Assembly: GCA_964016885.1 (NCBI GenBank)
Contig: OZ024743.1
Span: 196,726,001-196,790,000 of the forward strand
DNA: 64,000 bases
Direction of reading: 5' to 3'
Origin: Eledone cirrhosa
Taxonomy: Eukaryota
Notes under the pieces: generated by a model
What the model saw: the letters and a program-made list of their open reading frames with translations, nothing else
Told to the model about the DNA's origin: nothing
Database searches by the model: none
Part shown: positions 15,944 to 64,000 of the stretch, in pieces
Position numbering within the stretch: position 1 is the stretch's first letter
Layout: each line of letters opens with the position of its first letter
Translations under genes and position numbers: made by a program

Positions 15944-17605
15944 CAGCGGTGTATAATGGATATTGCCATAGGGTATACTCTGTGGTTTGCTTTAAAAAAT
16001 ATGTAAAATCACAAACCTTTTACTGTTGCAGAAGGACTCGATAAAAGTATATCAACATCATTTCCAGCAGCGTGAATTACAGTATTACTAAATAAGCTTT
16101 TTAAAAAAATCATTTACCATTGTAGCTGTATTGTGTTTCAGCCAGCATTAAACGTTTCTATCATATGTAAAGCAAAAATCGAGGGCTGTAAACAACAGCT
16201 GATTTTGTTAAATTAACGTCCTCTAAACTTTGACCAGGCTTAATATTTGTTTATATATTTCTAAGTCTGTATCATTAGATTTGAAAACAGGCGGTAGATT
16301 GGTAGATTCGAGAAAATGCCTTGCGAAATTTAATTCAAATCACGCCGAGGTCGACTCCGACTTTCATCTTTTCAGATGAATTACGTAACTGTCTTTATCC
16401 CATTGCAGAAACTAATTAGTTGGAGTGAAAATTTAAGTAAGAAAAAAATTTTTTTTAAATTTTTTTTAAAAAAATATTTTTTTATTTTACGTCCTTTATA
16501 TTATTGTTCTGCATTCTCCTGCATTGAACCACCTAGGTACTATGACATAACCTGTGTATTTGCTGGCATGGGCGTGCATCTGTGCGCTTATGTTAGTTGA
16601 TATATTAAATTATCTATATTTATCTCCAAATCACTGATTTGTCGAGCAAACTTGTCAAAACCACTTCTAAAAAAATTTTTTTTGGGGTGTTAGTAGGCGT
16701 CAGTCATCTTACCATCCCATTCCTTCTAACTAGCCTCTGTGTCACGTGATTGATTCTTTAGAATCGGCCATTTGACTTGAAGCAGTGAGAATTTCGGTAC
16801 ATAGAAATTCAGTCCTCGCAAGCTGTTCGATCTACCGAATTATTATTATTTTTATATGAGCCGCCAGTGTCCGCGCATTGCCTGGAGACTTAACTGAGAA
16901 TAGACTTCCTGATGACGCAATGAATTCTCGACAGTTGAATTACGTAACTGTCTTTATCCCATTGCAGAAACTAATTAGTTGGAGTGAAAATTTAAGTAAG
17001 AAAAAAATTAAATTTTTTTTAAAAAAATATTTTTTTATTTTACGTCCTTTATATTATTGTTCTGCATTCTCCTGCATTGAACCACCTAGGTACTATGACA
17101 TAACCTGTGTATTTGCTGGCATGGGCGTGCATCTGTGCGCTTATGTTAGTTGATATATTAAATTATCTATATTTATCTCCAAATCACTGATTTGTCGAGC
17201 AAACTTGTCAAAACCACTTCTAAAAAAATTTTTTTTGGGGTGTTAGTAGGCGTCAGTCATCTTACCATCCCATTCCTTCTAACTAGCCTCTGTGTCACGT
17301 GATTGATTCTTTAGAATCGGCCATTTGACTTGAAGCAGTGAGAATTTCGGTACATAGAAATTCAGTCCTCGCAAGCTGTTCGATCTACCGAATTATTATT
17401 ATTTTTATATGAGCCGCCAGTGTCCGCGCATTGCCTGGAGACTTAACTGAGAATAGACTTCCTGATGACGCAATGAATTCTCGACAGTTGAATTACGTAA
17501 CTGTCTTTATCCCATTGCAGAAACTAATTAGTTGGAGTGAAAATTTAAGTAAGAAAAAAATTTTTTTTAAATTTTTTTTAAAAAAATATTTTTTTATTTT
17601 ACGTC

Positions 17606-17654
<49 letters not shown>

Positions 17655-17823
17655 ATATATAGAGAGAAACACACAAATACATGCGGACACATACATATAC
17701 ATGAATATATCCACACATATCCCTGAGTTAGTGGTGCCAACCTATATATATATAGGTATGATATATCTTATTACTAATTATATCTAATGTTTCTTCTCTC
17801 TTCATAATGTACTATATATACAT

Positions 17824-20714: not shown

Positions 20715-20719
<5 letters not shown>

Positions 20720-21319
20720 TGATGAGGGACTCATTTTATAACATGTTATCCATGTGCAACCATGCAGTATTCTTCTCCCCCATATTTTTCATATATTTAC
20801 CTAAACTGCGATTCTGTGTTTCTCTCTTTCTCTCTTACTGCTCCCTCGTTCTCTCTGTTTCTCTTACTTTCTTTCGTCCCCTCTGTCAAGTCAGTTAACA
20901 CTTTCTCTCTACTGACCTCTTCCTCGCACTCCCACTCACTCAGTCCCTGTTTCTCCCCTTCTTACTTCCTCCCGTTCGCTTCGAAAACGATTTTCCTTCT
21001 TTCTAACATCCGATTCACTAGCGAAAGGTCTGTTTCTAACTCGCACATATATTCACACAGCTTATGCTGAAAGAATAACCATGTTGCTTGTGTTTATTTC
21101 CATCTTCGGTTAGCTTTCCCCTGTGTTGTTTACTTGTCTCACTCGCTTAACGCGTTTCTATTGTCCTAATAACTTATTTTAGTTATTATCGCTCCAACGT
21201 GAGGTATATGATTTTTAATGCGATGAAATACCAATGATCGTTGGCAAATCACTGATGAGGGACTCATTTTATAACATGTTATCCATGTGCAACCATGCAG
21301 TATTCTTCTCCCCCATATT

Positions 21320-21325
<6 letters not shown>
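20715..21325 (+). mobile_element. 533-bp retrozyme-like unit with ~80-bp terminal direct repeat, carrying the permuted hammerhead
   Basis: 20715-20794 repeated at 21248-21327; flanked by (TA)n. Confidence 0.85.
21163..21263 (+). ncRNA. Candidate non-circularly permuted hammerhead ribozyme
   Basis: GTCC TAATAAC..GTTATTA TCGC t CCAACG tga GGTAT A TGATTT ttaat GCGA T GAA ATACC aatgat CGTTGG c AAATCA CTGATGA G GGAC. Confidence 0.75.
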
Positions 21326-21364
<39 letters not shown>

Positions 21365-22635: not shown

Positions 22636-24852
22636 TTAAACCTTATTTAATGTTGGTCTATATTTTTGAATAAACATATTTTCCTTATTTATTCGCATTT
22701 GTTCTGTTGTATTGTTAGCGCAAAGGTAAAATGGGAAGACTTGGAATTTGGGTGTCTTATTACTTGCGCAAATGTCTAGATGTGCACTTAGTGGTATCTG
22801 TCTCGTGGTTGGATCTCGTAATTGTTGGCGATGAACTGTCATTCTGTTTCTGAGTGTGAGTTTAGTTTGTCCTATATAATCTTCATTGCATCCTTTACAT
22901 TTAATGGCATAAATTAGATTTTTTGATGAGCAAGTGAAGTGATTTTTTACAGTAAAATTTTGTCCTGATTTAAATGTATACGTGTTGCCTTCAATGAGGT
23001 GAGTGCAGGTTCCACAATTAGAGCGACCACATTTTTTGATACTTGGTTGTGGGTTTGTGGTAGGTAATTTGGCATTGGTGAGTAATGTTTTCAGTGATTT
23101 TGGTTGTCTTTTGCTTTTGATTATTTTGTGTGTTTCAAGGGCTTTTTTTCATTCTTGGGTTTTGTTTTAGTAGTGGGATGTTATTGTGAATAGTTTTGTA
23201 AGCTTCCGCATTTCTTGGGTTGTGTGTTGAGATATATGATAGAATATTGGACGTACCTTGAATTTGTTTCTGTTTCCGTAATTCATCAATGCCTATTGCT
23301 TTAGCCCTTTCTATTCCATTATTTATTAGTAATAGTGGGTACTCTCTCTCAAGTAGAATTTCCTTTAATTCTTGAAGTCTTTTATTTCGCGTTTCATAAT
23401 TGGAGACAATTGTGCAAATTCTTCTTGCTAGGTTAAAAGGAATGTTCGTCTTCGTGTGCTTTGGATGGTTGGAGGTGAATAGCAGATATTGTTTGGAATC
23501 TGTTGGTTTGTAGTGTATGTCAGTTTCGATATTTGTGTCTTTTTTGTGATTAAGATGTCCAGAAATGGGAGTTGATCTTGGCTGTATTCCATTGTGAATT
23601 GGATGTGGTTATTGATGCCGTTTATTAAGTTTTTGAAATCCTTCAGTTGGTCGAGTGTGTGGGACCAAAGAATGAGGCAATCATCCAAGTAGCGTTTCCA
23701 ATTCTCTGATAAATATTTGTGGAAGTTCAATCCGTATTTTGATTTGGACTGTTCATATATCTGGACTTCTAAGTATGCCATGACTAAGTTGGCATAAGTT
23801 GGAGCGGCTTTTGTGCCCATCGCAGTCCCCGATATTTGCTTGTAAGTATTGCCATCGAAATCAAAAAAGTTGTTCTGTAGGATGAATTTTAATCCCTCGG
23901 TGATGAAGCTTTTTTCTATTCTGTCAGGTATCTCATTGGGATATTTCTCTAGCCAGAATCCTATTGCTTCTAGTCCGTATTGGTGTGGGATCGTTGTGTA
24001 GAGATTCACTACATCGAAAGACACAATAATAGTGTCGTTGTTGACATGTTTGGGGAGGTGGTTTAAGAGGTCCAGATCGTCTCTTACAAGGCTTGGTATG
24101 TGTTTCAGTATTGGTTTCAGTAGTATGTCTATAAAGTTGCTCAATCTGTGTGTTTCACATTGTGGGCCCGCTACAATTGGTCTTAATTTAAGGTCTGTGG
24201 GGTATTGTGTGTTCACGCAGGCTGAGGTGGATTGTTTACAGGCATCGTTGATTATTTTACATTTGTGGATCTTCGGAAGTCCGTAAAGGTTGCTGGTTTT
24301 GTATTCAAAATTTGTTAAATAATCGCGTTCCTTTTTAGTTAGGTCTTCCTGGTATCGATAAATCAGTGTGTTTAATTTGGTCATTATTTTTGATTGCTGG
24401 TAGTTTTTTACTCTTTCATAGTAATTAGCATTTTGTAAGAGAGAGAACATAGAATTTTTATATTTTTCAGCCTCCATAATGACAACAGTACTTCCCTTGT
24501 CCGCTTCCTTAATTACAATGTCCGGATTGTTTTTTAGTTCATGGATAATCTCCCATTCCCTTCGACTTGTGTTGGGTTTGGGTTTAGGTTGCGGTAGTTC
24601 ATGGTATGGGAAGGTAGCTATGTGGTCACAAAATTTGTCCAGAACTCTGTTTCTACCTTTTGTTGGGTTGTAGCTGCTTTTATTCCGTACAATTGATTCG
24701 TCGTTATTCTCCTTGTCAAAGAATTCCTCTGTGTGACGTAATTTTCTACAGAAGTGTGAGATATCGTCATTTATCTCGTTGGGGTTAGGATATTGTGGTG
24801 TTGGTGTGAATTTCAGACCTTTGGAGAGAATTTTTACTTGTTGGGCTGAGAG
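22636..24852 (-). pseudogene. PLE RT + GIY-YIG, frameshifted
   Basis: LSKGLKFTP, IKEADKGS, YGLPKIHK, RPIV, GTAMGT, WKRYLDD; NLIYAIKCKGCNEDYIGQT at about 22865-22920. Confidence 0.9.
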
Positions 24853-25170
24853 ATTTATTATAATTATTGACAAACCAATCAAATTACTTCTCGAAAAACC
24901 TGGTTTTCGAGCCACTTTTTCCATATAAAACAAGTAACATTTAGAGACCAACCAGATGTGAGAAAAACCACAGACCCTCCATCTCAACTCACCTTTTGAA
25001 AAGCAGAAGAACTGCGAAACCGGTAACCAAATAAATATATATATATTTAAAAAAAAAATAAGACTTCAGTTGCATTTTCGATTTCATCCCTTTTTCTTTA
25101 TATATATATATATATATATATTAGTATAAATGTATACATATATATATATATATTAGTATAAATGTATACA

Positions 25171-25514: not shown

Positions 25515-28500
25515 TCTATAAAAGGCAGATTGTTGTTGTTGTGTGTGTGCGCATGTTCAATGTTTATACATTTGCACAATTTCAAACCGATTCGACTTAA
25601 AGTCTGGAAGAATGTTGTAAATAGTCTAACTTAGGTCAACAACTATTTATTTATTTCAACCTCGCCCACAATTACGGAAATGATCGATAAAACTAAATAC
25701 ATGACGCTTTACCCCTCAAATACAATCTGATTTATACTACCTAACTCCCATACATACTGCCACCTTCTCTTATATACGCTTATAAACCCACTCCTTAATA
25801 ATTTCACACAATTACATTTTGTGTATAACATATTTACACGTTTAGTGAGTGAAAAAAAAACACATAGGGATTTTGGGCCAAACAACTTCACATTGCTGCA
25901 TATTTACACGTTTATTGAGTGAAAAAAAAAACCACATAGGGATTTTTGGCCAAACAACTTCACATTGCTGACAGAAGCGCGCTTTAAACAAACTGTGAGT
26001 TATTTATTTGCCTCTGTAAGAATGTTGTCAATGGTCTAACTTAGGTCAACGACTATTTATTTATTTCAAAATCACCCACAATTACGGAAATAATTTCCTC
26101 TCTCTACTCCACATAAAAATCGAAAAAAAAAAATACATGCTCACACACAATTATATTTTGTGTATAACATATTTACACGTTTATTGAGTGAAAAAAAAAA
26201 AAATATTTATTTTTGGCCAAACAACTTCAAATTGCTGACAGAAACGCGCTTTCAACAAACTGTGAGTTATTTATTTGCCGTTCGTACTCCCATTTTTTCC
26301 CCTGCGGAACGCAGACAGTTTTCAGCCTTATACTTTCAAAGGCAATTTTGCTGTAGAAGTAACTTTCACCCTTTCTTTTTCACATAAAAGGCCACCTAAA
26401 AAGAGAAGTCGCCTCGGTCGCCATACCGCGTCAGCGGCGGCGAAGAGGGCGATTACAGCAAACGAGCCCCCGAGAAAACTGCTTTAAGACTTTCACAGAA
26501 CGCCTTACGTTCAGCGGAATGCAGAGCTGCTGGAAGTTTTCAACAACGCACCGCATACCTAGCCAAGATGGCTTCATACGACGCCTCGAGACGTACTGCG
26601 ATGTGCGATTCAGAGCGGGCGATACGTCATTCCAAAAAAAACGCTTCTATTGCTACTTCCAGGGCTTCAGAGGGCCCGGAACAAAGGGCGACTCGCCTGA
26701 ATAGAAACGCTGCTGCTACTGCTGCTTCTAGGGCGTCAGAGGGCCCGGAACAAAGGGCGGCTCGACTGAATAGAAACGCTGCGGCTACTGCTGCTTCCAG
26801 GGATTTGGAAGGTTTGGAACGGCGGGCGAATCGCATTGCTAGGAACGCTGCGGCTATGACTGCTTCCATGGCTTCTGAAGATGCAGACGGGCGCTCCATT
26901 AGGATTGCAAGGGTGGCTTCTGCTACTGCTGCGAGAGCTTCCCATGACCCACAGGAGCAACATTCTACGTTGGAGCGGAACAGTCGACGACAAGAAGCTG
27001 CCCGCGGTGTGACGAGCCACGACAGCCCATACTGGCACCTACGGGCTTTCAAGTATGAGCCCAACGTTAACTACTCGATGTGTGCCGACATAAATATAAG
27101 GGAAATGCGCTTCAATTGCAAAATCTGCAATGCTAAAAAGTGGGCTGAGGAGCCACCTGCAATGTGCTGCTTAAACGGTAAGGTCAGCTTTCCCCCTCTT
27201 GGGGAACCACTAGAGCCTTTGAAGGAACTACTTACTGGTTCTACCTCAAGGTCATCCAAATTCCTTCAACTCATCAGGAAGTACAATTGTGCGTTTCAAA
27301 TGACTTCTTTCGGGGCTAACGTTGTCAGAGAAAGTGGTTGGATGCCTACTTTGAAGGTCCAAGGACAGGTGTACCATCTTATTGGGTCGCTCCAGCCACT
27401 ACAAAATTACAAGCCTTCGTTCCTTCAAATTTACTTCATTTCTAAATACAGTAGGTAAGTTGATGCGCGGTTCGGCGTTATTCCAACACCTGCAAACACT
27501 GACGTTGACACTTTTGAAAGGGACGTGCTGCTCGGTCTTCAAAACTTGCTTCATGAGCACAACAGTTATATTCGCAGTTTCAAATACGCATTGGAAACAA
27601 ATCCTTCACCAAACTTCACCATTGTCATCGATGCTGACAAAAGACTTTCTGGGGAGCACGCACGCCGTTATAACACTCTTTCGTGCAATGAAGTGGCCGT
27701 AGTTATCCATGGTGAACAGCACAATAAGCGAGACATAGTTCTTCAAAGTTGTGACAGTGGTCTTCGACGTATTAATGAGACGCATCGTTCATACGACGCC
27801 CTGCAGTATCCCCTTCTTTTTGCATACGGAGAAGACGGGTACCATTTCGGCATTCCTCAGCGCAAACCAAACGAGCCCACTGCTGCGACATCTAAAACTG
27901 TTTCATGCATGGCTTTATACTCATACCGCTTCATGACGAGGCCTAACGATTTCAGCACCCTGCACAGGTCACGGGAACTGTTTCACCAGTTTGCAGTTGA
28001 CATGGCTGTAAAGATGGAGTCGGAGAGACTGTGCTTCATAAAATTGAATCAAAAGCAGCTGCGCTCAGACTCCTACATCCATTTGCGTGACGGCATCAGG
28101 AATGACACTGACCCCCGGAACATCGGCAAAATGTGCATTCTCCCCTCAACCTATACGGGTGGGGGGGGCGGGCGGTACTTGCACGAGCGAACACAGGACG
28201 CTATGACGTTCGTTTGGCATTATGGGCGCCCCGATTAATTCATCATGTTTACGTGTAACCCCAAGTGGGTTGAGGTTACGCGTGAACTTATCCCAGGGCA
28301 GCAGTACTGCCATCGGCATGATATTATTGCCAGGGTTTTCAGGCAGAAGCTGGCTAAGCTAATTGATCTAATAAAAAAAGGGAAGGTTTTCGGGCCTGTT
28401 AGGTGCCACATGTATACTGTTGAGTGGCAGAAGAGAGGGTTGCCACACGCGCACATTTTGGTTTGGTTGGTCACCAAAATAGACCCTACAGTTATAGATG

Positions 28501-31500
28501 ACGTCATCGCAGCGGAAATACCGGACCCCGTTGTTGACCGGCAGCTGTACGATATTGTGAAGGCACACATGGTGCACGGTCCATGCGGTCCCGGTTTTCA
28601 AAAGTTCTCTTCATGCCACAAGGACCATGTGTGCACTAAACGATACCCAAAGAGGTTTGTTGAGGAGACCCAGACCGGCGACGACGGATACCCACTGTAC
28701 AGACGAAGGCAGCCTGAGAACGGTGGATTCACTATGACGTTACGGGGTCATCAAGTTGATAATAGGTGGGTGGTCCCGTACTGTCCATTTCTGATGAAAA
28801 CTTTCAACGCTCATATAAATGTGTTCTGTCATTCAGTGAAGTCGATAAAGTACATATGTCAATATGTTAACAAGGGTTCCGACGCTGCCATGTTCGGCCT
28901 TCAAAACGACAATAGCAGGGACGAGGTCTCGGAGTACTTGGCAGGTCGATATATCAGCACTGGTGAAGCTTTGTGGCGGATATTCGGGTTTCCACTTCAC
29001 CAAAGGCACCCCACCATCATACAACTAGCCGTTCATTTGGAAAACGGCCAGCGGGCTTACTTTACTGAACAGACTGCTGCTCATTTGGCGGCCAATCCAA
29101 AAGAAACAACTTTGACTGTTTTTTTTACGCTTTGCCAACTTGACACATTTGCAAAAACACTTTCATATCCTCAGGTCCCGTCCTACTACGTGTGGTCAAA
29201 CAACACTTGGGTGCGTAGGAAGTTAGGTCAGGATGTTGAAGGACATCCTAGTGTTAAGTTTGACAGTTGTCTAAGAAGAGTGTACACTGTACCTCCCAAC
29301 CAGCTTGAGTGTTATCACCTGCGCCTTCTCCTCCATGAGGTTTTTGGCCCACAAATCTTTCGAGACATAAGAACTGTTGAGGGTGAATTATGTGATACTT
29401 TCCGGGAAGCCTGCTTTAGGCGTGGCCTTTTGGAGGATGATTCACAATGGGGCGCCACTATGGCAGAGGGCGTTTTGTTAAAATCTCCTAAAAGACTAAG
29501 ATCGCTTTTCGCTATTCTACTCCTATGGTGCGACTTGGGTGATCCGGCCTCTTTATGGCTTAGTTACAAAGATTATATGTTCCTGCGTCACGCTCAGTTG
29601 CTAAACCCATCGATGGAGGTCGGGTACAGTGACCTCATTTACAACAGGGCGCTGCTTGAAATCGAAGGTACTGTTCTCGATATGGTCGGTTGTGCGTTGG
29701 CTGTGTATCGCCTACTTTCAACAAACCGGGAAGGCGCAAACACTCTGTCTTCGGATTTGCTGCGTGAGACATCTTATAATGTTGACGAGCTTGCCCAGAA
29801 CATAGCGGAGAATGATCCAAAGCACCTTCCAGAACAGAAATTCGCTTACAACTCCGTTGTTAATTCTGTCCGGGGCAAAGCTGGGGGTATTCTTTTCCTG
29901 GACGCTCCTGGGGGGACTGGGAAAACTTTTGTCACCAAATTAATATTAGCTGAGATTAGGCGAACAGAAGACATTCCTTAGCTGTGGCATCATCTGGAAT
30001 TGCGGCTACTTTGTTGCCGGGCGGCAGAACAGCTCACTCCTATTTCAAGCTGCCGCTTGACTTAGCGAAGACTGAGACACCCACTTGCAACATCAGTAAG
30101 AGCTCCGATCAGGCAGAAGTGTTCAGACGATGCAAGCTTATCGTTTGGGACGAATGAACGATGGCCCACAGAGGTGCTCTTGAGGCGCTCGATAGAACTC
30201 TGAGAGACATCAAAGACTCTACGGCTCCAATGGGAGATATAACACTTCTTTCAGGAGACTTCAGGCAAACGCTTCCCGTTATTCCCAAGGGGATTAGAGC
30301 TGATGCAGTACGTGCGTGTCTTAAGTCATCCGCATTGTGGCCCCTGGTGAAGACTCTGAAACTTGACACTAACGTGCGTGCTCATATGCGAGGTGATATC
30401 AAATCAGCAGCATTTTCTCACACCCTCCTTGCACTTGGCGAAGGCAAAACGCCCGGGGATGAAAAGGGTAATATTGCCATCGACTCACTTTGTACCATTG
30501 TTAGTACGCCTTCTGATCTCAGGGATGCAGTGTTCCCAGATCTCCAAGCAAATTATCAGAATATGGATTGGCTTGCCCAAAGGGCTATTCTGGCCCCGAG
30601 GAATAAAACTGTTAACCATATTAATGATCAAATGCTAAAACTCATTCCTGGGATGGCTACGTATATAAGTCTATCGATAGAACTCCTGACCCCGAGGACG
30701 TCATCAACTATTCAATAGAGGTACTAAATTCCTTTGAGCCCCCCGGATTACCCCCACACATTTTGAAACTTAAAGTTGGTGCCCCTATAATGCTCATTCT
30801 AAATTTGGTTCCGCCGAAACAATGCAATGGCACGCGTTTGGTCGTTAAGTCCTTAGCTCCCAATCTGATTGAGGCCACGATAATCACAGGGTGCGGTTGG
30901 GGCAAGGTTGTGCTCATACCGAGGATGCATCTTTTCCCATCAGGAGCAGACCTACCTTTCACATTTTGGAGGTCCCAGTTCCCGGTCAGGCCATGCTTCG
31001 CAATATCAATTAACAAAGCGCAGGGACAAACACTGTCTGTCGCGGTAATACATTAGGGGGAGCCGTGTTTCTCTCATGGTCAGCTTTACGTTGGCTGCTC
31101 GCGTGTCGGCAGCAAGAGTGATTATTTCGCGTTCGTTCCGCAAGGAAAAACGAAAAACATTGTGTACAAGGAGATTTTATAGGATTACCTCGATTCCTAA
31201 TTTTATAACTTTTTTATTTTTTTTATTTTTTGCCTTTTCGTGAGTACTTTCTAAGTAGGTTAACCTTCACTGCAGTGCACTGGACACTCCCCACCATCTG
31301 CCGTACAAAGGCTGATTCTCGCGGCGTTACAAAGCTTCATTGCAACTCCGACCCTACTCAAATATCAGCTGTTGCTCCTCACCAACCCCCGTTTGGTGGG
31401 CCTCGGAGGACCGCGGACAGGTTAGTATTTCACCTCCGTACGACTCTCAAAGGGTCAACAATGCTTTAATGACGGGATTTACATTTTTAGGCGGTTCCCT

Positions 31501-32307: not shown

Positions 32308-34784
32308 CTTGACTTCATGAATGAGTTTTTCTTGTCCCAACTTGTCCTTGCACCAACGAGGCATCAGAAGAACATTCTGGATCTAGTGTTTAGTAACCAC
32401 ACTAACACTATACATAATATTACAGTGGAAAAAACCCTTCTCTGAGACCATGACATGGTTCTTTGTAACCTGAGATTCCACCAGCCGAAAGCTAATCCCA
32501 GGGTCCTCTCTCCAGCCCACCCATTTGATAACATGGATCTCCACAATGCCAACTGGGATGCAATTATGAACGAACTATCACATGTCGACTGGTCTTTTAC
32601 ACACGCACACACTTCTACCAACATCAAAACATCTTGGCAGATCTTTGTAGACACTGTCACAAATATATGTACAAAACACACCCCACCAAAACCTATGAAC
32701 AAAACCAAGTGCAGTATCCCCCAAAACAGAAAAACAATTATCAGAAAAATAAAAAGAACAAACAAAAAAATTAACACACTAAAATACTGCCAACAACAAG
32801 ACACACATTCAATGGCTATCAGCCTGCTTGAGTCAAAAAAATATAACCTCCAGCAATGCATGATGACCATCATCAATAACCAGAGAATAGCTGAAGAGAG
32901 GTGGACCATTGATAAAATCAAACTCAACCCCAAAGTGTTCTTCTCATTCGCTAAAAAACACAAGGTCACTGTCTCCACTGTTGACCCCCTAGTTGATGAA
33001 AATGGCACACTCCAGGACAATGCCAAAACCATGGGTGAGATACTGCAGAAACAATACTGCTCTGTTTTCAGCAAACCTGATATGGCCGATCTGGGCCGTA
33101 TCAGTGACATTAACCCCCAGCACATTATATCAGACATAACGTTTGGCGCTCCTGATGTCTTAGCGGCAATAAACGAAATTAAACACAATTCAGCAGTAGG
33201 CCCCAACAGGTTCCCTGCTTGTGTCCTGAAGGTGTGTCGACACCAACTTGCAACTCATCTTGCTAATCTGTGGAGGAACTCACTGGACACTGACTATATT
33301 CCTGAAAACTTTCTGTCCCAGTCTGTTGTCCCAGTCTTCAAAAAGAGAAATAAGTCCCTTGCAGTGAACTACCGTCCGATCTCATTCACCTCTCATATTA
33401 TCAAGGTATTTGAGAGGGTGGTGAGATCACGAATAACCCACTTTCTTGAAAGCAACGGCCTGCTGAACTCCAACCAACATGGGTTCCGTAATGGAAGGGA
33501 CTGGCTAACGCAGCTCCTGCGTCACTTTGACGATGTTTTGAGAGCCTTGGGAGAGGGCTCCAACACTGATGTCATCTACCTTGATTTCAGCAAGGCCTTC
33601 GACAGGATTGATCATAAGATTCTACTGAAAAAACTATCCAATGTTGGTGTCTCTGGAAGGTTACTACAGTGGATCAAATGTTTCCTGACAGGCAGAACCC
33701 AGCATGTTGTAGTCGAAGGAGTAAAATCAAGCCCTGCCAAAGTCAGCAGTGGCGTCCCACAAGGCACTGTGTTGGGTCCACTTCTTTTCATCATCTACAT
33801 TAATGACATTACTGACATCATCAAACACAGCAACATCAGAATCTTCGCAGATGATTCAAAGCTCCAAAGGGTCATCAATGAGGTGGGTGACCGGACTTGC
33901 CTTCAGTCAGACCTACTGGCTGTTATCCAATGGGCAGAGATGAATAATATGCTGTTGAATGAGGATGAATTTGAACTAATCCACTGGAAAAAAAGGATGC
34001 CCTGAAACTACCATACTCTCTTCCTTCGGGTGAAACTTTAATGGCTTCCAATAACATCAGAGACCTGGGAGTAATTGTGGACAACAATATAAGCCGGGCC
34101 ACTCATATAAACAGCAAAATTGATATGGCCCGCAGAATGTGTTCCTGGATTCTCAGAACTTTCTAGTCGAGAGATATCCACACTGTTGTCCTTCTCTTCT
34201 CCACTTTTGCCCGACCCCACCTTGAATACTGTTGTCACCCCACACGAAACAAAGTATCATGAAAGTTGAAGCACCCCAAAGGTCAATTACAAAAAAGATA
34301 GATGGCATGACAGGCCTTGACTATTGGGGTCGATTAGAAAAGCTCAAACTTTATTCTCTTCAACGTCGCCGTGAGCGCTACATTATCTTAAGATGTGGAA
34401 AATATTCCATCAGCTTAGCCCAAATGATGTTGGCATCACCTTTGATGGCATCGCTTGGGCCCCGTGCTATCCGCCCACGAAAAAATCCCACTTGCATCAC
34501 ATAACAACAATACAGCACAATTATTTCACCTCAATTGGCCCTGCACTCTTTAACATTACACCAAAACACATCAAAGCAGAGACAGACCCCATCAAGTTCA
34601 AGAAGTCTTTGGATAAATTCCTTCAACAAATCCCGGATAAGCATCTTACACCCGTAAACAATAACTCTCTGCTCGAGTCGGCCATAGTGCCCAAACACTG
34701 ATTTGTAAGACTTCGCCAGGTGGTGCTATTAAGTTAGACATGGTCTGGGTCAAAACTGGCCGAAACCTATCAAAGTTATCAAAG

Positions 34785-36559: not shown

Positions 36560-38480
36560 AGGGAACCAGATGGACCATAACGCACCAGAGTAATCAATAC
36601 TTAGGGTAGTAGAGTGGGAAATAGGAAAGAGTATGACCCTGACGGCAGAGCCCAAGCCGTTTCGACGGCTATTTCTGAACTAAATTAGAATTTTTAGCCT
36701 GGTGAATAAATAGCCGAACTTGTCAAGGGGGTACTTCCTTATATGAGAATATTGCAGTTGTCAAGAGGATTGGTTAAAATTTGTTGTAAACACAAATAAG
36801 TCTATCATGGCATTGGTGGTAGGTAGGGGTGGCTGAACTTGCCTGTAGGACAATAGGGGAGTGAATGGAGCTGATACAAAATTAAAGGGGTTTAACACGT
36901 CTGCTATAAGTAGTTAGTAAAACATATTTGGCCAATTCTATCTTAAAATTACAGGGGTGGGGGAACTGATGCTAGAGAGGCCCGATGGGCTGCATCGGGG
37001 TAGGCGAAAGGGGAAAAGCAGACGAGGAAGAAAATAGGGGGTGGAAGGAAGTGATAGGATGAGACAGGGGGAAGAAGGAGACAAAGAGGAAAAGAAAAGA
37101 AAAGAGATACATCTACCTAAGTAAGCTGGGGTTTCCCCTAACTTATTCGGCAAGTGGGGGGTATCAGCCCTTGTCTACCCACCCGGGTCATTATGGGGTT
37201 TGAGTGCGAGGTAAGTCCTACGCAATCTGTGTTTGCATGCGGTTACCAGTTCGTCTTTCTTGTTTAGGAATTGGTCCTTCGAAAACAACATTTGTAATGT
37301 TTTCTCCGAGCATAAGTTACACGAACGGCGTCCTCCCGTGTAAGAGTTAGCTCTGGACAGTAAGTTCCAAGTGAGATTGTAGGTTATATTATTATCTTGG
37401 AGGTCCCAGATGTGGCCCGAAAGTGTAGTGGCATGTCGCCGGACCGGGTTTCGGAGAGTATGTCGGTGTTGGTAGAGCCGGGTCTTGAAGTCACACGCGG
37501 TTAATCCTATATGAGCTTTGTTGGAGGTGTCCGTCCTCACGTTGCACTGGTAGATCACGTTACGTTCTCGGCATTTGTTGTTGAGAGGGCACGTAGATCT
37601 ATCAGGGCAGTTACACCTGGTCGGCTCTCCACTGATATCTAGGTTATTTCTTCCATAGGAGTTGAGTTTGTTGTTGTTTGAGGAGACGATGTTATGTGCG
37701 AAGTTAGGTGTGGTGTTGTAGGAGAGTTTGATGGTGTTTTTGTTGATTATGTTGTGGTAGCGTGTTGTAGTGGGAAGTGTTTTTCGAGGAGTCTAAAGAA
37801 GATTTTCCCGATCGGTGTTGCCACCTCGGCATTATGGGAAGGATTGAACCACGTTACGTTGCGTGTGCGGCGGTGTCGCCTGCTGATTCCGCTAAGGGAA
37901 GCTGGATAAAAGGATATTTCCTCCCGGAAGCTACTCCGCTTGAGGGCCTGGTTGTAATGATGCGCGTGTTCGTCGAATATCTGCTCATTAGCGGACAAAC
38001 GAGATATGCGGGGGGAGATGTTTTTAACCAGGTTATTAGTGATGTTTCTAGGATGGTTAGAGCGGCGGTGGATGTAGTGCAGGTTGTCGTTTGGTTTCCT
38101 GTATGGGTAGTACAGATCATTTTCGAGGTTAAGGGTAACGTCCAGGAAATTGACTCGGGTTAGGGACGTTTGTAGGGTGATTTTAAATCCACGGTCCCGG
38201 AAGAAGTTGATTAGTTGTTTACGGACCCGATCTGTACTACTGGGGTTGTACCCTTTGAGGGTGAGGAGCCCATCATGCCGGTACAATCCACCGCCGAATG
38301 CAGGAAACATTTCGGTGAGTTTAAATAGTAGGAATAATCCTATAAGATCTGTGACCTCGGCCGAATCCGTCGCGCCCATACTGACGTTGAAGGGGGAGTC
38401 GGGATCTCTCTTTATCCACTTGGAGTTGTCGAAAAGTAGGAAACGGCTTGAGCTCTGCCGTCGGGGTCATATTTTTCCTA
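36560..38480 (-). mobile_element. Penelope-like element of a different clade (possibly Nematis-like), 5'-truncated, with inverted pseudo-LTR stub at 38440-38480
   Basis: MGATDSAEVTDLIG, GLYRHDGL, VNFLDVTL, VIYQC..HIGLT..FKTR, CNLC.EK; HHR-like motif at 36651-36729. Confidence 0.85.
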
Positions 38481-39227: not shown

Positions 39228-40026
39228 ATAAAAGACGTAAAATAAGAAAATTTAAAAAAATTTTTTTTAAATTAACTTACTTACTAAAATTTTCACTCCA
39301 ATTAGTAAGTAAGTTAATTTTTTTAAATTTTTTTTTTAATTTTCTTATTTTACGTCTTTTATATTATTGTTCTGCATCCTCCTGCATTGAACCACCTAGG
39401 TACTATGACATAACCTGTGTATTTGCTGGCATTAGCGTACATCTGTGCGCTTATGTTAGTAGATATATTAAATTATCTATATTTATCTCCAAATCACTGA
39501 TTTGTCGAGCAAACCTGCCAAAACCACTACTAAATTTTTGGTGTGTTAGTAGGCGTCTGTCATCTTACCATCCCACTCCTGCCGACTAGCCTCAGTGTCA
39601 CGTGATTGATTCTTTAGAATCGGCCATTTGACCAGTGGCAGCGAGATTTTCAGTACTTGGAATCCAGTCCCCGATAGCTGTTCCATTTACCGAATTATTA
39701 TTATTTTTATATGAGTCCCCAGTGTCCGCGCATTGCCTGGAGACTTGGCTGAGAATAGACCTCCCTGATGACGCAATGAAATTCTCAACAGTTCATTACG
39801 TAACTGTCTTTATCCCATTGCAGAAACTAATTAGTTGGAGTGAAAATTTTAGTAAGTAAGTTAATTTTTTTAAATTTTTTTTTAAATTTTCTTATTTTAC
39901 GTCTTTTATATTATTGTTCTCCATCCTCCTGCATTGAACCACCTAGGTACTATGACATAACCTGTGTATTTGCTGGCATTAGCGTACATCTGTGCGCTTA
40001 TGTTAGTAGATATATTAAATTATCTA
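39228..40026 (+). mobile_element. Diverged copy of the 559-bp retrozyme family with a short inverted arm
   Basis: Homologous to the 14-kb array; HHR at 39761-39840; 39228-39300 inverted. Confidence 0.88.
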
Positions 40027-42122: not shown

Positions 42123-42174
<52 letters not shown>

Positions 42175-42357
42175 CATGAGAAGAAAGAAGAATACTGCGT
42201 GGTTTGCACATGGGTTACATATGATAACACACATATATATATATACATACATATATACCTACATATATATATATATACATACATATATATATATATACAT
42301 ATACATATATATATATATATATACATACATAATATATATATATATACATATATACAT

Positions 42358-56911: not shown

Positions 56912-57016
56912 GTATATATGTATATATGTATGTATATATGTATATATTTATGTGTATATGTAGGAGGTGAGTTTTATTGTAGCACAATAAAGCAATGTGT
57001 ATATATATATATATAT

Positions 57017-57660
57017 ATATAAAACATGAGAAGAAAGAAGAATACTGCGTGGTTTGCACATGGGTTACATATGATAAAAATAGTCCTTAGTCAGTGATTT
57101 TCCAACCATCATTGGTATTTCATCGCATTAAAAATCAGATACCTCAGGTTGGTGCGAACAATAACTAAAAAAAGTTATTGGGACCAGAATTCGCGTAAGG
57201 CGAGGGGGACAAGTAAACAACATAGAAGGATAAAAGCAAACCGAAGATAGGAAAATAAACAAGCAACATGGTTGTCCGGTCAGCATAAGCTGGGTGGATT
57301 TCATGAGCGAGAGGGGTACAGACCGTGTTGATGTGTGTGAGATGTGAGCAAGAAGAGACCCACACAAGCCAAACGGGAGGTAGTGAGAAGGGTAGAAACA
57401 GAGAGTGAGTCAGTGGAAGTGTGAGGAAGAGGTCAGTCGAGAGAAAGTGTAACTGATAGAGGGGGCGAAAGAAGGTGAGAGAAACAGAGAGAGCGGGGAA
57501 GCAGTAAGGGAGAAACAGACAAACGCAGCCGAGGTAAATATATATAAAAAACAGGAGAAGAAAGAAGAATACTGCGTGGTTTGCACATGGGTTACATATG
57601 ATAAAAATAGTCCTTCGTCAGTGATTTTCCAACCATCATTGGTATTTCATCGCATTAAAA

Positions 57661-57664
<4 letters not shown>
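57017..57664 (-). mobile_element. 527-bp retrozyme-like unit with ~120-bp terminal direct repeat, permuted-HHR family
   Basis: 57020-57137 repeated at 57546-57664; full motif at 57083-57184. Confidence 0.85.
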
Positions 57665-57719
<55 letters not shown>

Positions 57720-58021: not shown

Positions 58022-58094
58022 AAATAAAGGATTATGAGTTCATGCAATGGACTTATGTTTCGTCACTATATATATATATATATGTGTATATATA

Positions 58095-58209
<115 letters not shown>

Positions 58210-58264
58210 AACAAGGGGAGAAGAATACTGCATGGTTGCACATGGATTACATATTATAAAATTA

Positions 58265-58366
58265 GTCCCTCATCAGTGATTTGCCAACCATCATTGGTAT
58301 TTCATCGCATTAAAAATCAGATACCTCAGGTTGGTGCGAGCAATAACTAAAATAAGTTATTGGGAC
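58265..58366 (-). ncRNA. Candidate non-circularly permuted hammerhead ribozyme (best copy; element about 58205-58545)
   Basis: GTCC CAATAAC..GTTATTG c TCGCA CCAACC tga GGTAT C TGATTT ttaa TGCGA T GAA ATACC aatgat GGTTGG c AAATCA CTGATGA G GGAC. Confidence 0.78.
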
Positions 58367-58571
58367 AAGTGAAACGCGTAAAGCGAGTGAGACAAGTAAA
58401 CAACAGAAGGAAAAACAAACCCAAGGTTGGAAAAACAACAAGCAACATGATAGTTATCCGATCAGCATAAGCTGGGTGAATTTCATGAGCCGTCAGAGAA
58501 GCAGACCGTACGCCATGAATGCGGTGTGAGAAAGAAGGAACCCCACTACTATATATATATATGAATATTTA

Positions 58572-61663: not shown

Positions 61664-62302
61664 TAGGTAAAATTCCCGAGATCCATGGACGAGTTCTCTC
61701 CAGCGCTGCCATGTCCTGCGTCTCCACAGACCAGTGTCTGTTCTTAGGGCATCAACATACGTTAACCTTGGTCTTCCTCTTCCAGTGTGTCCATGTAGGG
61801 GCTCCCACAGGAGCACTGAGTACAATGTCAACTCTGGATGTCGGCGAGCATGTCCAGCTAACCTCAGTCTCCTCTGTGTCACTTTTGAGCTGACTTTTGG
61901 GAGGCTTCCATACAGCTCTGAGTTTTTCATCCTCAGTGTATACTGATTAATGTTCAGAGCCATCCTCAGCATTCTCGTGTAGCACCCATCTACCATCTGA
62001 GTGAGTTTCTTGGTCAGTGTCCAAGTCTCAGACCCGTACAGCAGCACAGACTCCACTACAGCAATGAAGAGGCGGATCTTCAGGTCTTTACGAAGGTCCG
62101 ACTTCCACAACTCACAAACTGTGGCACACCGCTCAGGCCTTGCTCTTCCTCTCAACCACATCATCTTCCGCATTTCCAATCTTTGTTCCCAAATACAGGA
62201 AACCCTCAATCAATTCTAGCGGCTTCTCGCCTACATTAGTGATCCCCTCTGACTTCTCAACATTCTCTACCAGATATTTTGTTTTAGTCTCATTCATCCC
62301 CA
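61664..62302 (-). mobile_element. RTE LINE 3' portion, inverted
   Basis: Same family as 2540-3190, on the minus strand. Confidence 0.9.
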
Positions 62303-64000
62303 CATTGGCAGTGAGGAACATGACCAATGCTGCAGTAGGAGGAGTGGGTTTTGTTTTCAGCACAAAATCAGTCTATTGGTGAGGGAAATAATACCTGTCT
62401 CCCCACGAGTGTTGAGGGTGACCTTCAATGGAAACCCAAGACTGACAGTCATCTCAGCCTATAGTCCAACCGAGGGAGACTGTGATGTGAGTGCGGAAGA
62501 GTTCCTTGAGGAGGTGTGTAGAGCTGTCAACACCACACAATCACACCACATCCTGCTTGTTTTGGGGGACTTCAATGCACATCTGAGAAAGGAGGGCAGT
62601 GAAGATCCTTTCTGGTACTTCCATAACAACACCAACCGAAATGGAAGACTACTGAGAGACACCCTGCTGGAGGCGAACTTGATAGTGACCAACCTAAGGT
62701 TTAGGAAGAATCCAGGGAAGATGTGGACCTACATCTCAGATATGCACCTGTCCAAGTCCCAGATTGATTTCATTCTGGTGAGGAAAAAGTGGCGGAATAG
62801 TGTTCTGAACACAGAACCATACAACTATTTCAGTACACTGGGTAGTGACCACAGGCTTGTTATGAGTGAGGTCCGGGTGAGCTTAAGAAAAAGCAAGGCT
62901 CAGCCCCGGAGAGCAATCTATGACTGGGGAGATTTCAAGGAAGATGATAAGCTACAGGAGAGGTTCACAGTGGAAGTGAGGAACTGGTTCAGTGCTCTGT
63001 GTGGAGAGACAGAGGAGAGAGAGATTGGATGGACTGAGGAGAGTGTGACAAGGAGGTATGGGCACTTCACCAATGCAGTGGCGGAAGCAAGTGAGACCCT
63101 GGTGCCGAGGAGAAAGAACAAAAAGAAGCACGTCAGCTCTGCAGACCCCAAAGTGTGTGCAGCCAGAGAACACCTGAAAGTTGCCAAGGACCAATTCTAT
63201 GCTGATCCTACAGAGGAGAGGATGGAGACTGTGGAGGTGATGATGGAAGAACTCTGTACCGCTTACACTGAGGCCGGAGAGGAGGCACTGATAGAGAAGA
63301 TCAGAAGTGTGGAGAGAGCGGTTGATAGGTCTGGATGTAAGGAGAGCTGGATGATCATCAACGAGATCACAGGGAGGAAGAGAAGGTGTTCGATTCAGAT
63401 CCAGGGAACGGGGCCCGAGGATAGGAAGAGGAAATGGCTAGACCATTTTAGGACCCTACTAGGAGAGCAGCCCTCCACAGTCCAGAGCACTGGGGAGATC
63501 AGGCGGCTGTTAGAAGAACTGGATATTGAGACAGAGCCCTTCACCAGAGAGGAGCTTCAGAGAGCCAAGAAGAAGATCAAGGAGGGCAAGGCTCATGGAG
63601 AAAATGGAGTGGCATCAGAGGTGATGAAGAGGTGTGATTTTGATGATATCATCCCGGGGTTCTGTAACCAGGCACTGGAGAAAGGAGTTGCCCCGAATCA
63701 GTGGAGGATTAGTAACATCGTCCCAGTGCCAAAGCAGGGAGATTTCTTTAACACCAACAACTACAGAGGGGGGGGTCTCGCTGACGTCACTTATGGCAAA
63801 GATCCACAACAGGAGGATTCTTAACAGGATCCAGCTCGAGTTGGATAAGAAGCTCAGGGACAACCAGAACGGTTTCAGAGAGGGAAGATCAACCACCAGT
63901 CACATCCTGATGCTGAGGAGGATATTAGAGGGAACTAGAGCAAAGTGCCTTCCTGCGGTCATGGTGGTTTTCATTGACTTTAGGTAGGCCTTTGATTCTG
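62303..64000 (+). mobile_element. RTE LINE APE endonuclease + start of RT, frameshifted, runs off the window
   Basis: GGVGF, ISAYSPT, LGDFNAH, QIDFILV, GSDHRLV, IVPVPK, NYRG, QNGFREGRST, VFIDF. Confidence 0.92.

What the first reader, a model, noticed from the sequence alone, without database searches (positions are those of the whole stretch)
58265..58366. Candidate non-circularly permuted, pseudoknotted hammerhead ribozyme in a ~530-bp mobile repeat family
Seen: the minus strand reads GTCC CAATAAC ttatttta GTTATTG c TCGCA CCAACC tga GGTAT C^ TGATTT ttaa TGCGA T GAA ATACC aatgat GGTTGG c AAATCA CTGATGA G GGAC. Every hammerhead core element is present and pairs correctly: stem III GGTAT/ATACC, H17=C, stem I TGATTT/AAATCA, CUGAUGA, GAAA and a single 10.1-11.1 pair. 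The strand order, however, is NUH strand, GAAA strand, CUGANGA strand. Established: types I/II/III are circular permutations that all keep the cyclic order CUGANGA, GAAA, NUH, so this order is none of them and standard descriptors would miss it. Stem II is replaced by a junction (GTCC/GGAC, CAATAAC hairpin, TCGCA/TGCGA), and an extra helix CCAACC/GGTTGG crosses the fold. Inference: a rearranged self-cleaving ribozyme that processes a retrozyme-like RNA. Natural non-circularly permuted hammerheads have, to my recollection, been reported before; whether this animal family or topology is among them needs checking.
Basis: partly seen in the sequence, partly recalled or inferred. Interest (0 to 1): 0.95.

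Follow-up and report, generated by a model that had tools for sequence, protein, structure and literature searches.

The report
Rearranged hammerhead ribozyme in animal retroelements
A predicted self-cutting RNA motif whose three parts are joined in an order so far reported only from environmental sequence data sits in a very abundant jumping repeat of this animal genome, and the same design appears in several published Penelope-like retrotransposons that were described as lacking a canonical hammerhead.

Summary
Window 58366-58265 (minus strand) holds a complete hammerhead core in the order cleavage site, GAAA, CUGANGA. That order is 'type SGC' of Eckert et al. 2023, who found it only in metatranscriptomes. 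Here it lies in a tandem, non-coding repeat (units 470-706 nt) inserted in (TA)n. Half of the motif matches exactly 13,920 times in the genome, against 3 control matches. Across 11 subfamily consensuses the catalytic positions are invariant, only N7 and H17 vary, and stem I, the crossing helix and the side hairpin covary. Unlike published SGC ribozymes, stem II is interrupted by a four-way junction. Read by eye, 5 of 17 published Naiad retrotransposon 3' ends carry an SGC core (4 with the same junction; coral, crustacean, cephalopods), and 2 nematode Naiads carry type CSG. Naiads were reported to lack canonical hammerheads. Best reading: a non-autonomous, Penelope-mobilised retrozyme that probably descends from a Naiad 3' end. 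Cleavage, expression and monomer versus dimer action are untested. Insertion 5' ends do not cluster at the cut site, and only decayed Naiads were found in this genome.

The parts
58205..58551 (-). Focal insertion: 5'-truncated single unit (~347 nt) of subfamily A (unit ~532 nt), between TA runs
   Evidence: TA array 58067-58205
58265..58366 (-). Type-SGC hammerhead motif with four-way junction in stem II
58363..58366 (-). P0 5' strand (closing helix; pairs with 58265-58268)
   Evidence: G-C to A-U change in 2 of 11 subfamily consensuses; pair probability 0.99
58341..58362 (-). P1 hairpin (7 bp, 8-nt loop)
   Evidence: 5 of 7 pairs with two-sided change; 74 of 77 consensus cells paired
58335..58339 (-). 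P2 5' strand = displaced distal stem II strand (pairs with 58305-58309)
   Evidence: first four pairs invariant in 11 of 11 consensuses, fifth paired in 6 of 11; one two-sided change
58329..58334 (-). Crossing helix 5' strand (pairs with 58284-58289); analogue of Eckert's stem I-II interaction helix
   Evidence: 5 of 6 pairs with two-sided change; 65 of 66 cells paired
58314..58325 (-). Block S: stem III 5' strand, U16.1 (58321), C17 (58320), stem I 3'-side strand; predicted cut between 58320 and 58319
   Evidence: cleavage itself inferred by analogy
58296..58309 (-). Block G: stem II strand, U11.1, G12 A13 A14, stem III 3' strand
58269..58282 (-). Block C: stem I strand, CUGAUGA, G10.1
   Evidence: stem I 5 of 6 pairs with two-sided change; 10.1-11.1 paired in 10 of 11 consensuses
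56981..57668 (-). Neighbouring partial tandem of subfamily A3 (one full but mutated motif, one starting near the cut site); lower end approximate
   Evidence: (L078)
20715..21329 (+). Partial tandem of subfamily A2 (CUGAUGA at 20719 and 21252, spacing 533)
12029..12310 (+). Truncated copy of subfamily B (unit ~620 nt) with compensatory stem I and G-C at 10.1-11.1; ends approximate
42163..42227 (-). 3'-end fragment of the family, without the ribozyme

Best explanation
The motif is a type-SGC (non-circularly permuted) hammerhead ribozyme whose stem II is nicked after pair 10.1-11.1 and carries a P0/P1 side domain as a four-way junction. It belongs to a non-autonomous, non-LTR retrozyme-like family. 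Proposed cycle: (1) a tandem copy is transcribed (inferred); (2) the ribozymes cut after C17/A17 and release a unit-length RNA (inferred from core conservation); (3) a host ligase circularises it (inferred from known retrozymes); (4) a Penelope-like RT/GIY-YIG enzyme nicks (TA)n, primes at a CAUA(UA) site 70-135 nt downstream of the cut, and copies backwards across the ligated junction, giving fixed 3' ends, ragged 5' ends and lengths up to about two units (anatomy shown, enzyme inferred). The ribozyme module most likely descends from the 3' end (pseudo-LTR) of a Naiad element, since autonomous Naiads of other animals carry the same seven-helix design (about 0.65). Whether one RNA copy folds alone or two copies dock as a double hammerhead is open (about even).
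For: Core: in 141 unique full-length copies collected by a profile rather than by a core pattern, each of the 11 fixed core positions is kept in 136-141 copies, H17 is never G, and 127 of 141 have the complete core. In 11 subfamily consensuses the fixed positions are invariant and only N7 (U/C) and H17 (C/A) vary. Helices: 92.6% of 680 cells paired, 19 of 34 pairs with two-sided change, 0 of 500 shuffles reach this, slid controls 25-50% paired (20 hand-picked copies). The motif is more conserved between 6 distant units than the rest (76% versus 59%). Anatomy: 27 of 30 type-A loci end 125 nt after the cut, with TA repeats at the 3' end in 29 of 30; 8 of 30 (A), 15 of 30 (B) and 16 of 30 (E) exceed one unit. 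Precedent: SGC ribozymes cleave in vitro and need all four helices (PMC10085705). Naiads target (TA)n and some have a 'half core' with the second half on either side (PMC8557442). The same P0-P1-P2-crossing helix-S-G-C layout, with different helix sequences, was read by eye in Naiad_Ovul, the record before it, Naiad_EuTe and Naiad_Amil.
Against: No cleavage or expression data. Insertion 5' ends do not pile up at the predicted cut: 0 of 30 loci chosen by the 3' end and 1 of the first 20 distinct loci listed, against 9 of 20 at the TTAA linker (counted by eye). No young Naiad was found in G000: all 115 matches are fragments, the best non-self ones 63-68% identical with stops. The SGC profile gave no significant hit in the Naiad relics' own 3' regions. 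10 of 17 Naiad 3' ends read showed no parsable permuted core. The largest sampled cluster (E) has C.A at 10.1-11.1. P2 and stem III barely covary within this genome, and stem III was partly fixed by the pattern used to collect copies. Relatedness inflates the shuffle test (tool caveat).
Confidence: 0.8

Rival explanations
1. Domain-swapped double hammerhead (a rival for how it works, compatible with the rest). Each copy folds into the nested shape P0, P1, crossing helix, stem III. Its 20-nt terminal loop (cut site, stem I strand, stem II strand, GAA) docks into the junction of a second copy, which supplies CUGAUGA and the partner strands. Two ordinary three-way cores form, so tandem precursors cut and the monomeric circle is spared.
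For: Single-strand folding favours exactly the nested set (mean pair probabilities P0 0.60, P1 0.83, crossing helix 0.53, III 0.71; P2 0.07, I 0.06; centroid). A crude length estimate (2.8 A per bp, 6.5 A per nt, my assumption) makes the single-copy fold just possible here (need ~41 A, have ~43) but too short for Naiad_EuTe (55 versus 40) and Naiad_Amil (60 versus 41). Amphibian retrozyme hammerheads work as dimers (PMC7229834 passages). Eckert et al. note the same geometric puzzle for zero-linker SGCs.
Against: ViennaRNA cannot form crossing helices, so the low P2 and stem I probabilities are partly built in. Published SGC RNAs cleave during transcription of single-copy templates. The estimate fits a monomer for Naiad_Ovul and Naiad_Hpol. 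Many genomic copies are single.
Confidence: 0.4
2. The fold is real but does not cut in this family. It is a protein-binding or packaging signal inherited from a ribozyme, and tandem copies arise from uncut read-through RNA.
For: No 5'-end pile-up at the cut site. Element lengths stop near two units. 8 of 9 Xenopus retrozyme dimers tested did not cleave (Li et al. 2026 preprint). C.A at 10.1-11.1 in subfamily E.
Against: The conservation pattern follows the catalytic rules exactly (free N7, H17 never G, G5/G8/G12 fixed) across units only 51-62% identical overall. A ligated circle would also erase a 5'-end signal.
Confidence: 0.1
3. The retrozyme's SGC ribozyme arose independently or from another Penelope clade, and the likeness to Naiad motifs is convergent.
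For: Only Naiad relics are present in G000, while C-terminal-endonuclease Penelope elements with long frames and canonical type I hammerheads are present. No significant unit-to-Naiad-relic DNA match apart from one separate insertion in L231 (best other E 0.009).
Against: Seven helices in the same order, the same 8-nt P1 loop as Naiad_Ovul, a TTAA-containing linker as in Naiad_Amil and Naiad_Esco, the same position near the 3' end and the same (TA)n target. Mobilisation today by another clade is compatible with Naiad descent.
Confidence: 0.25
4. Chance complementarity in an AT-rich repeat.
For: Short helices; z-score of the minimum-energy fold only -1.45; no Rfam hit.
Against: 0 SGC hits in shuffles; two-sided changes in 19 of 34 pairs; core invariance.
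Confidence: 0.02

Closest known systems
Type-SGC hammerhead ribozymes (HRIMA-1 and variants; Eckert et al. 2023, PMC10085705)
   Same: Block order S-G-C, short linker between stem I and stem II, extra helix tying the other sides of stems I and II, intact core.
   Different: Published SGCs are from metatranscriptomes and none was found in genomes of known organisms. In SGC-1 and SGC-3 the stem II strand and the interaction strand follow CUGANGA at the 3' end (oligo sequences). Here both lie 5' of block S, and the ends are closed by P0 with a P1 hairpin, a four-way junction that breaks their 'block C' assumption.
Non-LTR retrozymes of animals (Cervera and de la Pena 2020, PMC7229834; Li, Clavereau, Pollet 2026 preprint 10.64898/2026.07.22.740005)
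   Same: Non-coding tandem units with one hammerhead each, GC below 50%, dispersed monomers and dimers, Penelope-like insertion pattern.
   Different: These are defined by type I hammerheads and were searched with type I descriptors. This family has SGC, and its units (470-706 nt) are longer than the 170-400 nt RNAs of the 2020 paper.
Naiad Penelope-like elements (Craig et al. 2021, PMC8557442)
   Same: (TA)n target; motif near the 3' end on the sense strand; same helix layout in 4 consensuses and an SGC core in a fifth (read by eye).
   Different: Naiads are 3.4-4.4 kb and encode GIY-YIG plus RT; this family is non-coding. The paper reports no canonical hammerhead and leaves 'HHR_core' and 'HHR_half_core' unexplained.
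Type-CSG hammerheads (Eckert et al. 2023)
   Same: CSG, SGC and GCS are circular permutations of one another; two nematode Naiad consensuses read as CSG.
   Different: Different opening point; only two metagenomic examples were published.

Membership tests
Hammerhead ribozyme | CUGANGA, GAAA and UH (H not G) | tested here: met
   127 of 141 full-length copies complete; 11 of 11 consensuses
Hammerhead ribozyme | Stems I and III flanking the core | tested here: met
   stem I 65 of 66 and stem III 55 of 55 consensus cells paired; stem I covaries
Hammerhead ribozyme | Stem II closing the core (pair 10.1-11.1) | tested here: met
   paired in 10 of 11 consensuses in four pair types, C.A in one; continued by P2
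Hammerhead ribozyme | Site-specific self-cleavage after H17 | not testable with these tools
   needs in vitro transcription
Hammerhead types I/II/III (Rfam models) | Cyclic order CUGANGA, GAAA, NUH | tested here: not met
   order is S-G-C; no hammerhead hit in Rfam
Type-SGC hammerhead (Eckert 2023) | Block order S, G, C | tested here: met
   definition
Type-SGC hammerhead (Eckert 2023) | Short linker from stem I to stem II (typically 3 nt) | tested here: met
   4 nt, TTAA in 10 of 11 consensuses
Type-SGC hammerhead (Eckert 2023) | Helix joining the other sides of stems I and II | tested here: met
   crossing helix, 5 of 6 pairs covary
Type-SGC hammerhead (Eckert 2023) | Block C unbroken: stem II strand directly follows CUGANGA (HRIMA-1 layout) | tested here: not met
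   only one pair follows A9; the rest of the strand is 5' of block S behind P0/P1. So SGC by order, but not a member of the HRIMA-1 motif
Non-LTR retrozyme | Tandem non-coding units, each with a hammerhead, GC below 50% | tested here: met
   33 tandem pairs listed (some loci overlap), units 470-706 nt, GC 40-46%
Non-LTR retrozyme | Type I hammerhead | tested here: not met
   type SGC; works like a retrozyme but falls outside the published definition
Non-LTR retrozyme | Expressed as linear and circular unit-length RNA | not testable with these tools
   needs RNA data; see Tried and rejected
Naiad Penelope-like element | ORF with N-terminal GIY-YIG and RT | tested here: not met
   units of 470-706 nt are far too short
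Naiad Penelope-like element | Insertion into (TA)n | tested here: met
   TA at the 3' end in 29, 27 and 26 of 30 loci for A, B, E; not specific to Naiads
Naiad Penelope-like element | Sequence homology of the unit to a Naiad pseudo-LTR | tested here: inconclusive
   same architecture in published consensuses by eye; G000 relics too decayed

The most novel reading that the evidence does not exclude
Non-circularly permuted hammerheads are a widespread, overlooked ribozyme type of animal genomes. They are the 'missing' hammerheads of Naiad retrotransposons (SGC with a four-way junction in coral, crustacean and cephalopods; CSG in nematodes) and they drive their own retrozyme families at more than ten thousand copies. 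In the boldest form they act as domain-swapped double hammerheads, which would also explain the geometric puzzle of published SGC RNAs.
Probability: 0.6. Interest if true: 0.92.

Novelty: new variant of a known kind. Interest (0 to 1): 0.84.

Why it matters
Non-circular permutation in RNA was reported once in the searched library, from environmental sequence, with no SGC example in a known genome. If these motifs cleave, the topology is common in animal genomes and invisible to the type I/II/III descriptors used for ribozyme and retrozyme censuses, so those counts are too low. It would also overturn the reading that Naiad retrotransposons proliferate without hammerheads and make the role of ribozymes in Penelope-like transposition testable across the clade. 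The natural subfamilies supply ready-made compensatory variants for structure work on a hammerhead with a four-way junction in stem II.

Tried and rejected
Cut-site footprint in the genome: one window copy starts at the predicted cut, and 41 exact TA-plus-cut-site junctions exist genome-wide. But 0 of 30 loci chosen by the 3' end start there (L115 and L116 are one element), and among the first 20 distinct loci one starts there and nine at the TTAA linker. TA microhomology (many subfamilies have A at H17) explains this, so it is rejected as evidence. Expression: no RNA holder listed. Other organisms: runs X4, X5 and X8 gave only 3-4 short contigs each and are not counted; X6 (another organism label and study) gave 48 contigs over most of the unit including the ribozyme, with variants like subfamilies A2 and C. 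Family-specific full pattern: 0 matches in metagenome contigs and 0 in viral contigs. Autonomous partner: the Penelope element beside the SGC copy in L123 is a separate insertion with a canonical type I hammerhead. An 18-nt motif of the Naiad_Ovul ribozyme has 0 matches in G000. The 3' regions of eight Naiad relics hold at most a suggestive GAAAT(A/G)CC ... C(A)GAUGA remnant at the family's spacing in L222, not significant; further flanks of the relics were not examined. A type I hammerhead assembled over three tandem units was considered and rejected because a compact 100-nt fold with covarying local helices exists. Rfam over the whole window returned microsatellite-driven hits in the 150 rows shown of 421. 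The repeat finder was swamped by (TA)n. Three look-ups of earlier scan findings returned nothing on this motif.

Full report
Observation. The three hammerhead blocks occur in the order cleavage site (S), GAAA (G), CUGANGA (C). A descriptor allowing all six block orders (stem I at least 5 bp, stem III at least 4 bp, stem II at least 1 bp) found 3 SGC and 5 type I motifs in the window, and 4 SGC and 9 type I motifs in 35 arbitrary 10-kb stretches (35 of 39 fetched; 4 targeted ones left out). Five local shuffles of the same DNA gave 0 SGC, 1 CSG and 1 SCG. Rfam has no hammerhead hit over the element at E<=10.

The host repeat. The window lies in a 3.0-Gb animal genome, G000. A cephalopod is likely, an inference from Naiad relics that resemble the published octopus Naiads by eye. 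The S+G half of the motif matches exactly 13,920 times against 3 for the reversed control. Tandem copies give units of 470-706 nt, GC 40-46%, 65-70% pyrimidine on the ribozyme strand; distant subfamilies are 51-62% identical. In 30 loci each of subfamilies A, B and E, chosen by the ribozyme alone, 3' ends are fixed: A 27 of 30 at +125 from the cut; B 20 at +120 and 7 at +71; E 13 at +96 and 11 at +135. They abut TA repeats in 29, 27 and 26 of 30, 5' ends are scattered, and 8, 15 and 16 of 30 are longer than one unit, up to about two. Inverted neighbours occur (L101/L102). This is the pattern expected from target-primed copying by a Penelope-like enzyme (established knowledge; PMC8557442 passages; PMC11167929 first part). 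The focal copy is a truncated single unit.

Selection on the fold. Of 294 profile hits in the held DNA, 141 unique copies were full length; 127 have the complete core and none has G at H17. Clustering gave 11 subfamilies with at least two copies (13 singletons left out). In their consensuses the fixed core is invariant, N7 is U or C, and H17 is C or A. Cells paired: stem I 65 of 66, crossing helix 65 of 66, stem III 55 of 55, P1 74 of 77. Pair 10.1-11.1 forms in 10 of 11 in four pair types, with C.A in the largest sampled cluster. P0 has a G-C to A-U swap in two subfamilies and is shifted by one base in B. The first four pairs of P2 never vary and the fifth is often open. On 20 hand-picked copies, 92.6% of 680 cells pair, 19 of 34 pairs change on both sides, 0 of 500 shuffles reach this, and slid controls pair 25-50%. 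Caveats: copies are related, most of those 20 were collected with a pattern that fixes stem III, and B, J and H2 are misregistered at P0 in that alignment. The motif is 76% identical among six distant units, the rest 59%.

What is known. Eckert et al. 2023 (PMC10085705; text parts 2-6 of 8 read, supplement parts 1-2 of 42) named this order type SGC. [quoted passage not shown] In their tested SGC-1 and SGC-3 the stem II strand and the interaction strand follow CUGANGA (read by eye). Here those two strands sit 5' of block S and the molecule is closed by P0 with hairpin P1. Stem II thus becomes a helix nicked after its first pair, with a four-way junction (inference from the pairings). Animal non-LTR retrozymes are defined and searched by type I hammerheads (PMC7229834, abstract and passages; Li et al. 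2026 preprint, parts 1-3 of 5; its supplements were not seen).

The Naiad link. Craig et al. 2021 (PMC8557442; passages, and supplement parts 1, 10, 15, 18, 19, 24, 25, 27 of 59) report that Naiads target (TA)n and lack canonical hammerheads, and they flag 8 'half cores' whose second half lies on either side. I read the 3' ends of 17 of their 54 Naiad consensuses by eye, without a computed control. Four carry the full layout of our motif with different helix sequences. Naiad_Ovul and the near-identical record before it (Naiad_Obim by file order) have stem I CTGCCC/GGGCAG, P2 GACAC/GTGTC and the same 8-nt P1 loop. Naiad_EuTe has stem I GGAAG/CTTCC and P2 GACGCC/GGCGTC. Naiad_Amil has stem I TAGGAT/ATCCTA, P2 GGCTCC/GGAGCC and P0 AACTGT/ACAGTT. 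Naiad_Esco has S-G-C with stems I, III and the crossing helix but an imperfect junction. Naiad_Hpol and the record before it (Naiad_Hcon by order) read as type CSG. The other 10 showed nothing I could parse; several are marked incomplete. In the four full Naiad motifs position 11.1 pairs with the first base of the displaced strand rather than with the base after A9, a one-pair shift at the junction.

Against a simple parent-child story. G000 holds only decayed Naiads: 12 motif hits and 115 protein matches from 150 scored of 164 candidates, the best non-self ones 63-68% identical with stops. The SGC profile finds nothing significant in their 3' regions. Copies 96-99% alike must have been moved recently, so either by an undetected Naiad or by the C-terminal-endonuclease Penelope elements that are present with long frames (window 7440-8954, RT plus GIY-YIG; L123). 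Insertion 5' ends do not mark the cut site. That fits a ligated circular template but equally an uncut one.

Mechanism. Shown: sequence, helices, covariation, copy number, insertion anatomy. Inferred: transcription, cleavage after H17, circularisation by a host ligase (by analogy), and priming in (TA)n. A copy that starts at +125 and holds two ribozymes needs about 710 nt; 7 of 30 type-A loci are at least 737 nt and could seed a new unit-length RNA. The single-copy fold must bring the end of stem III back to the top of stems I and II. A crude length estimate allows this here and for Naiad_Ovul and Naiad_Hpol but not for Naiad_EuTe or Naiad_Amil. The nested helices that ViennaRNA predicts are those expected if two copies dock as a double hammerhead, so both modes stay open.

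Novelty. Searches of the held library: 'non-circular permutation' + 'hammerhead' (8 papers, 6 listed); 'type-SGC' + 'hammerhead' (only Eckert); 'retrozyme' + 'hammerhead' + 'permuted' (18, 16 listed); 'Naiad' + 'hammerhead' (4, 3 listed); and two broader ones. No listing describes a permuted hammerhead in an animal genome or in Naiads; most were seen as listings only, and subscription papers are not covered. Verdict: a new variant of known kinds (SGC hammerhead, retrozyme), well supported as a conserved fold, untested as a catalyst, with a lead that bears on a published open point about Naiads. Interest 0.84.

Noticed in passing
window 40999(-), 42913(+), 45967(+), 46473(-), 61380(-), 57971(+): Several canonical type I hammerheads with short, self-complementary AT-rich stem III; five passed the descriptor, and nine more were found in 350 kb elsewhere.
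   Followed up: partly
window 19128(-)/19263(+) and 59359(-)/59628(+); L123:7240-7300: Minimal type I hammerhead in inverted pairs; the same sequence lies in the 3' end of a Penelope-like element with RT and C-terminal GIY-YIG-like motifs in L123.
   Followed up: partly
window 12875-17800 and 39300-40000: A 559-nt tandem repeat in both orientations carrying CUGAUGA in a large hairpin loop, with no GAAA block that I could place; possibly another retrozyme-like family.
   Followed up: no
window 3854(-), 47738(+), 413(-), 865(+): Further CUGANGA motifs in repeats, some followed by a short stem II and GAAA.
   Followed up: no
window 7440-8954(+), 23431-25065(-), 5577-7349(-), 37178-38466(-): Penelope-like RT frames of several kinds; the first has Pfam RT and GIY-YIG hits, the second an RT hit, the others were recognised by eye.
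   Followed up: partly
window 26400-29978(+): Helitron in several frames (Helitron_like_N and PIF1 hits).
   Followed up: no
window 32446-34002(+), 62253-63821(+), 2147-2884(+): LINE-type endonuclease/RT fragments.
   Followed up: no
PMC8557442 File S5, Naiad-3_Dst and the record before it: A CUGACGA whose stem I partner may lie about 450 nt upstream, a possible long-range SGC arrangement; seen by eye only.
   Followed up: no
PMC10085705 SGC-1 and SGC-3; Naiad_Ovul: An extra U follows A9 in both tested SGC RNAs and in Naiad_Ovul, at the place of the variable 10.1 base of this family.
   Followed up: partly
L210-L231: About a hundred decayed Naiad fragments in G000, all broken by stops or shifts.
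   Followed up: partly
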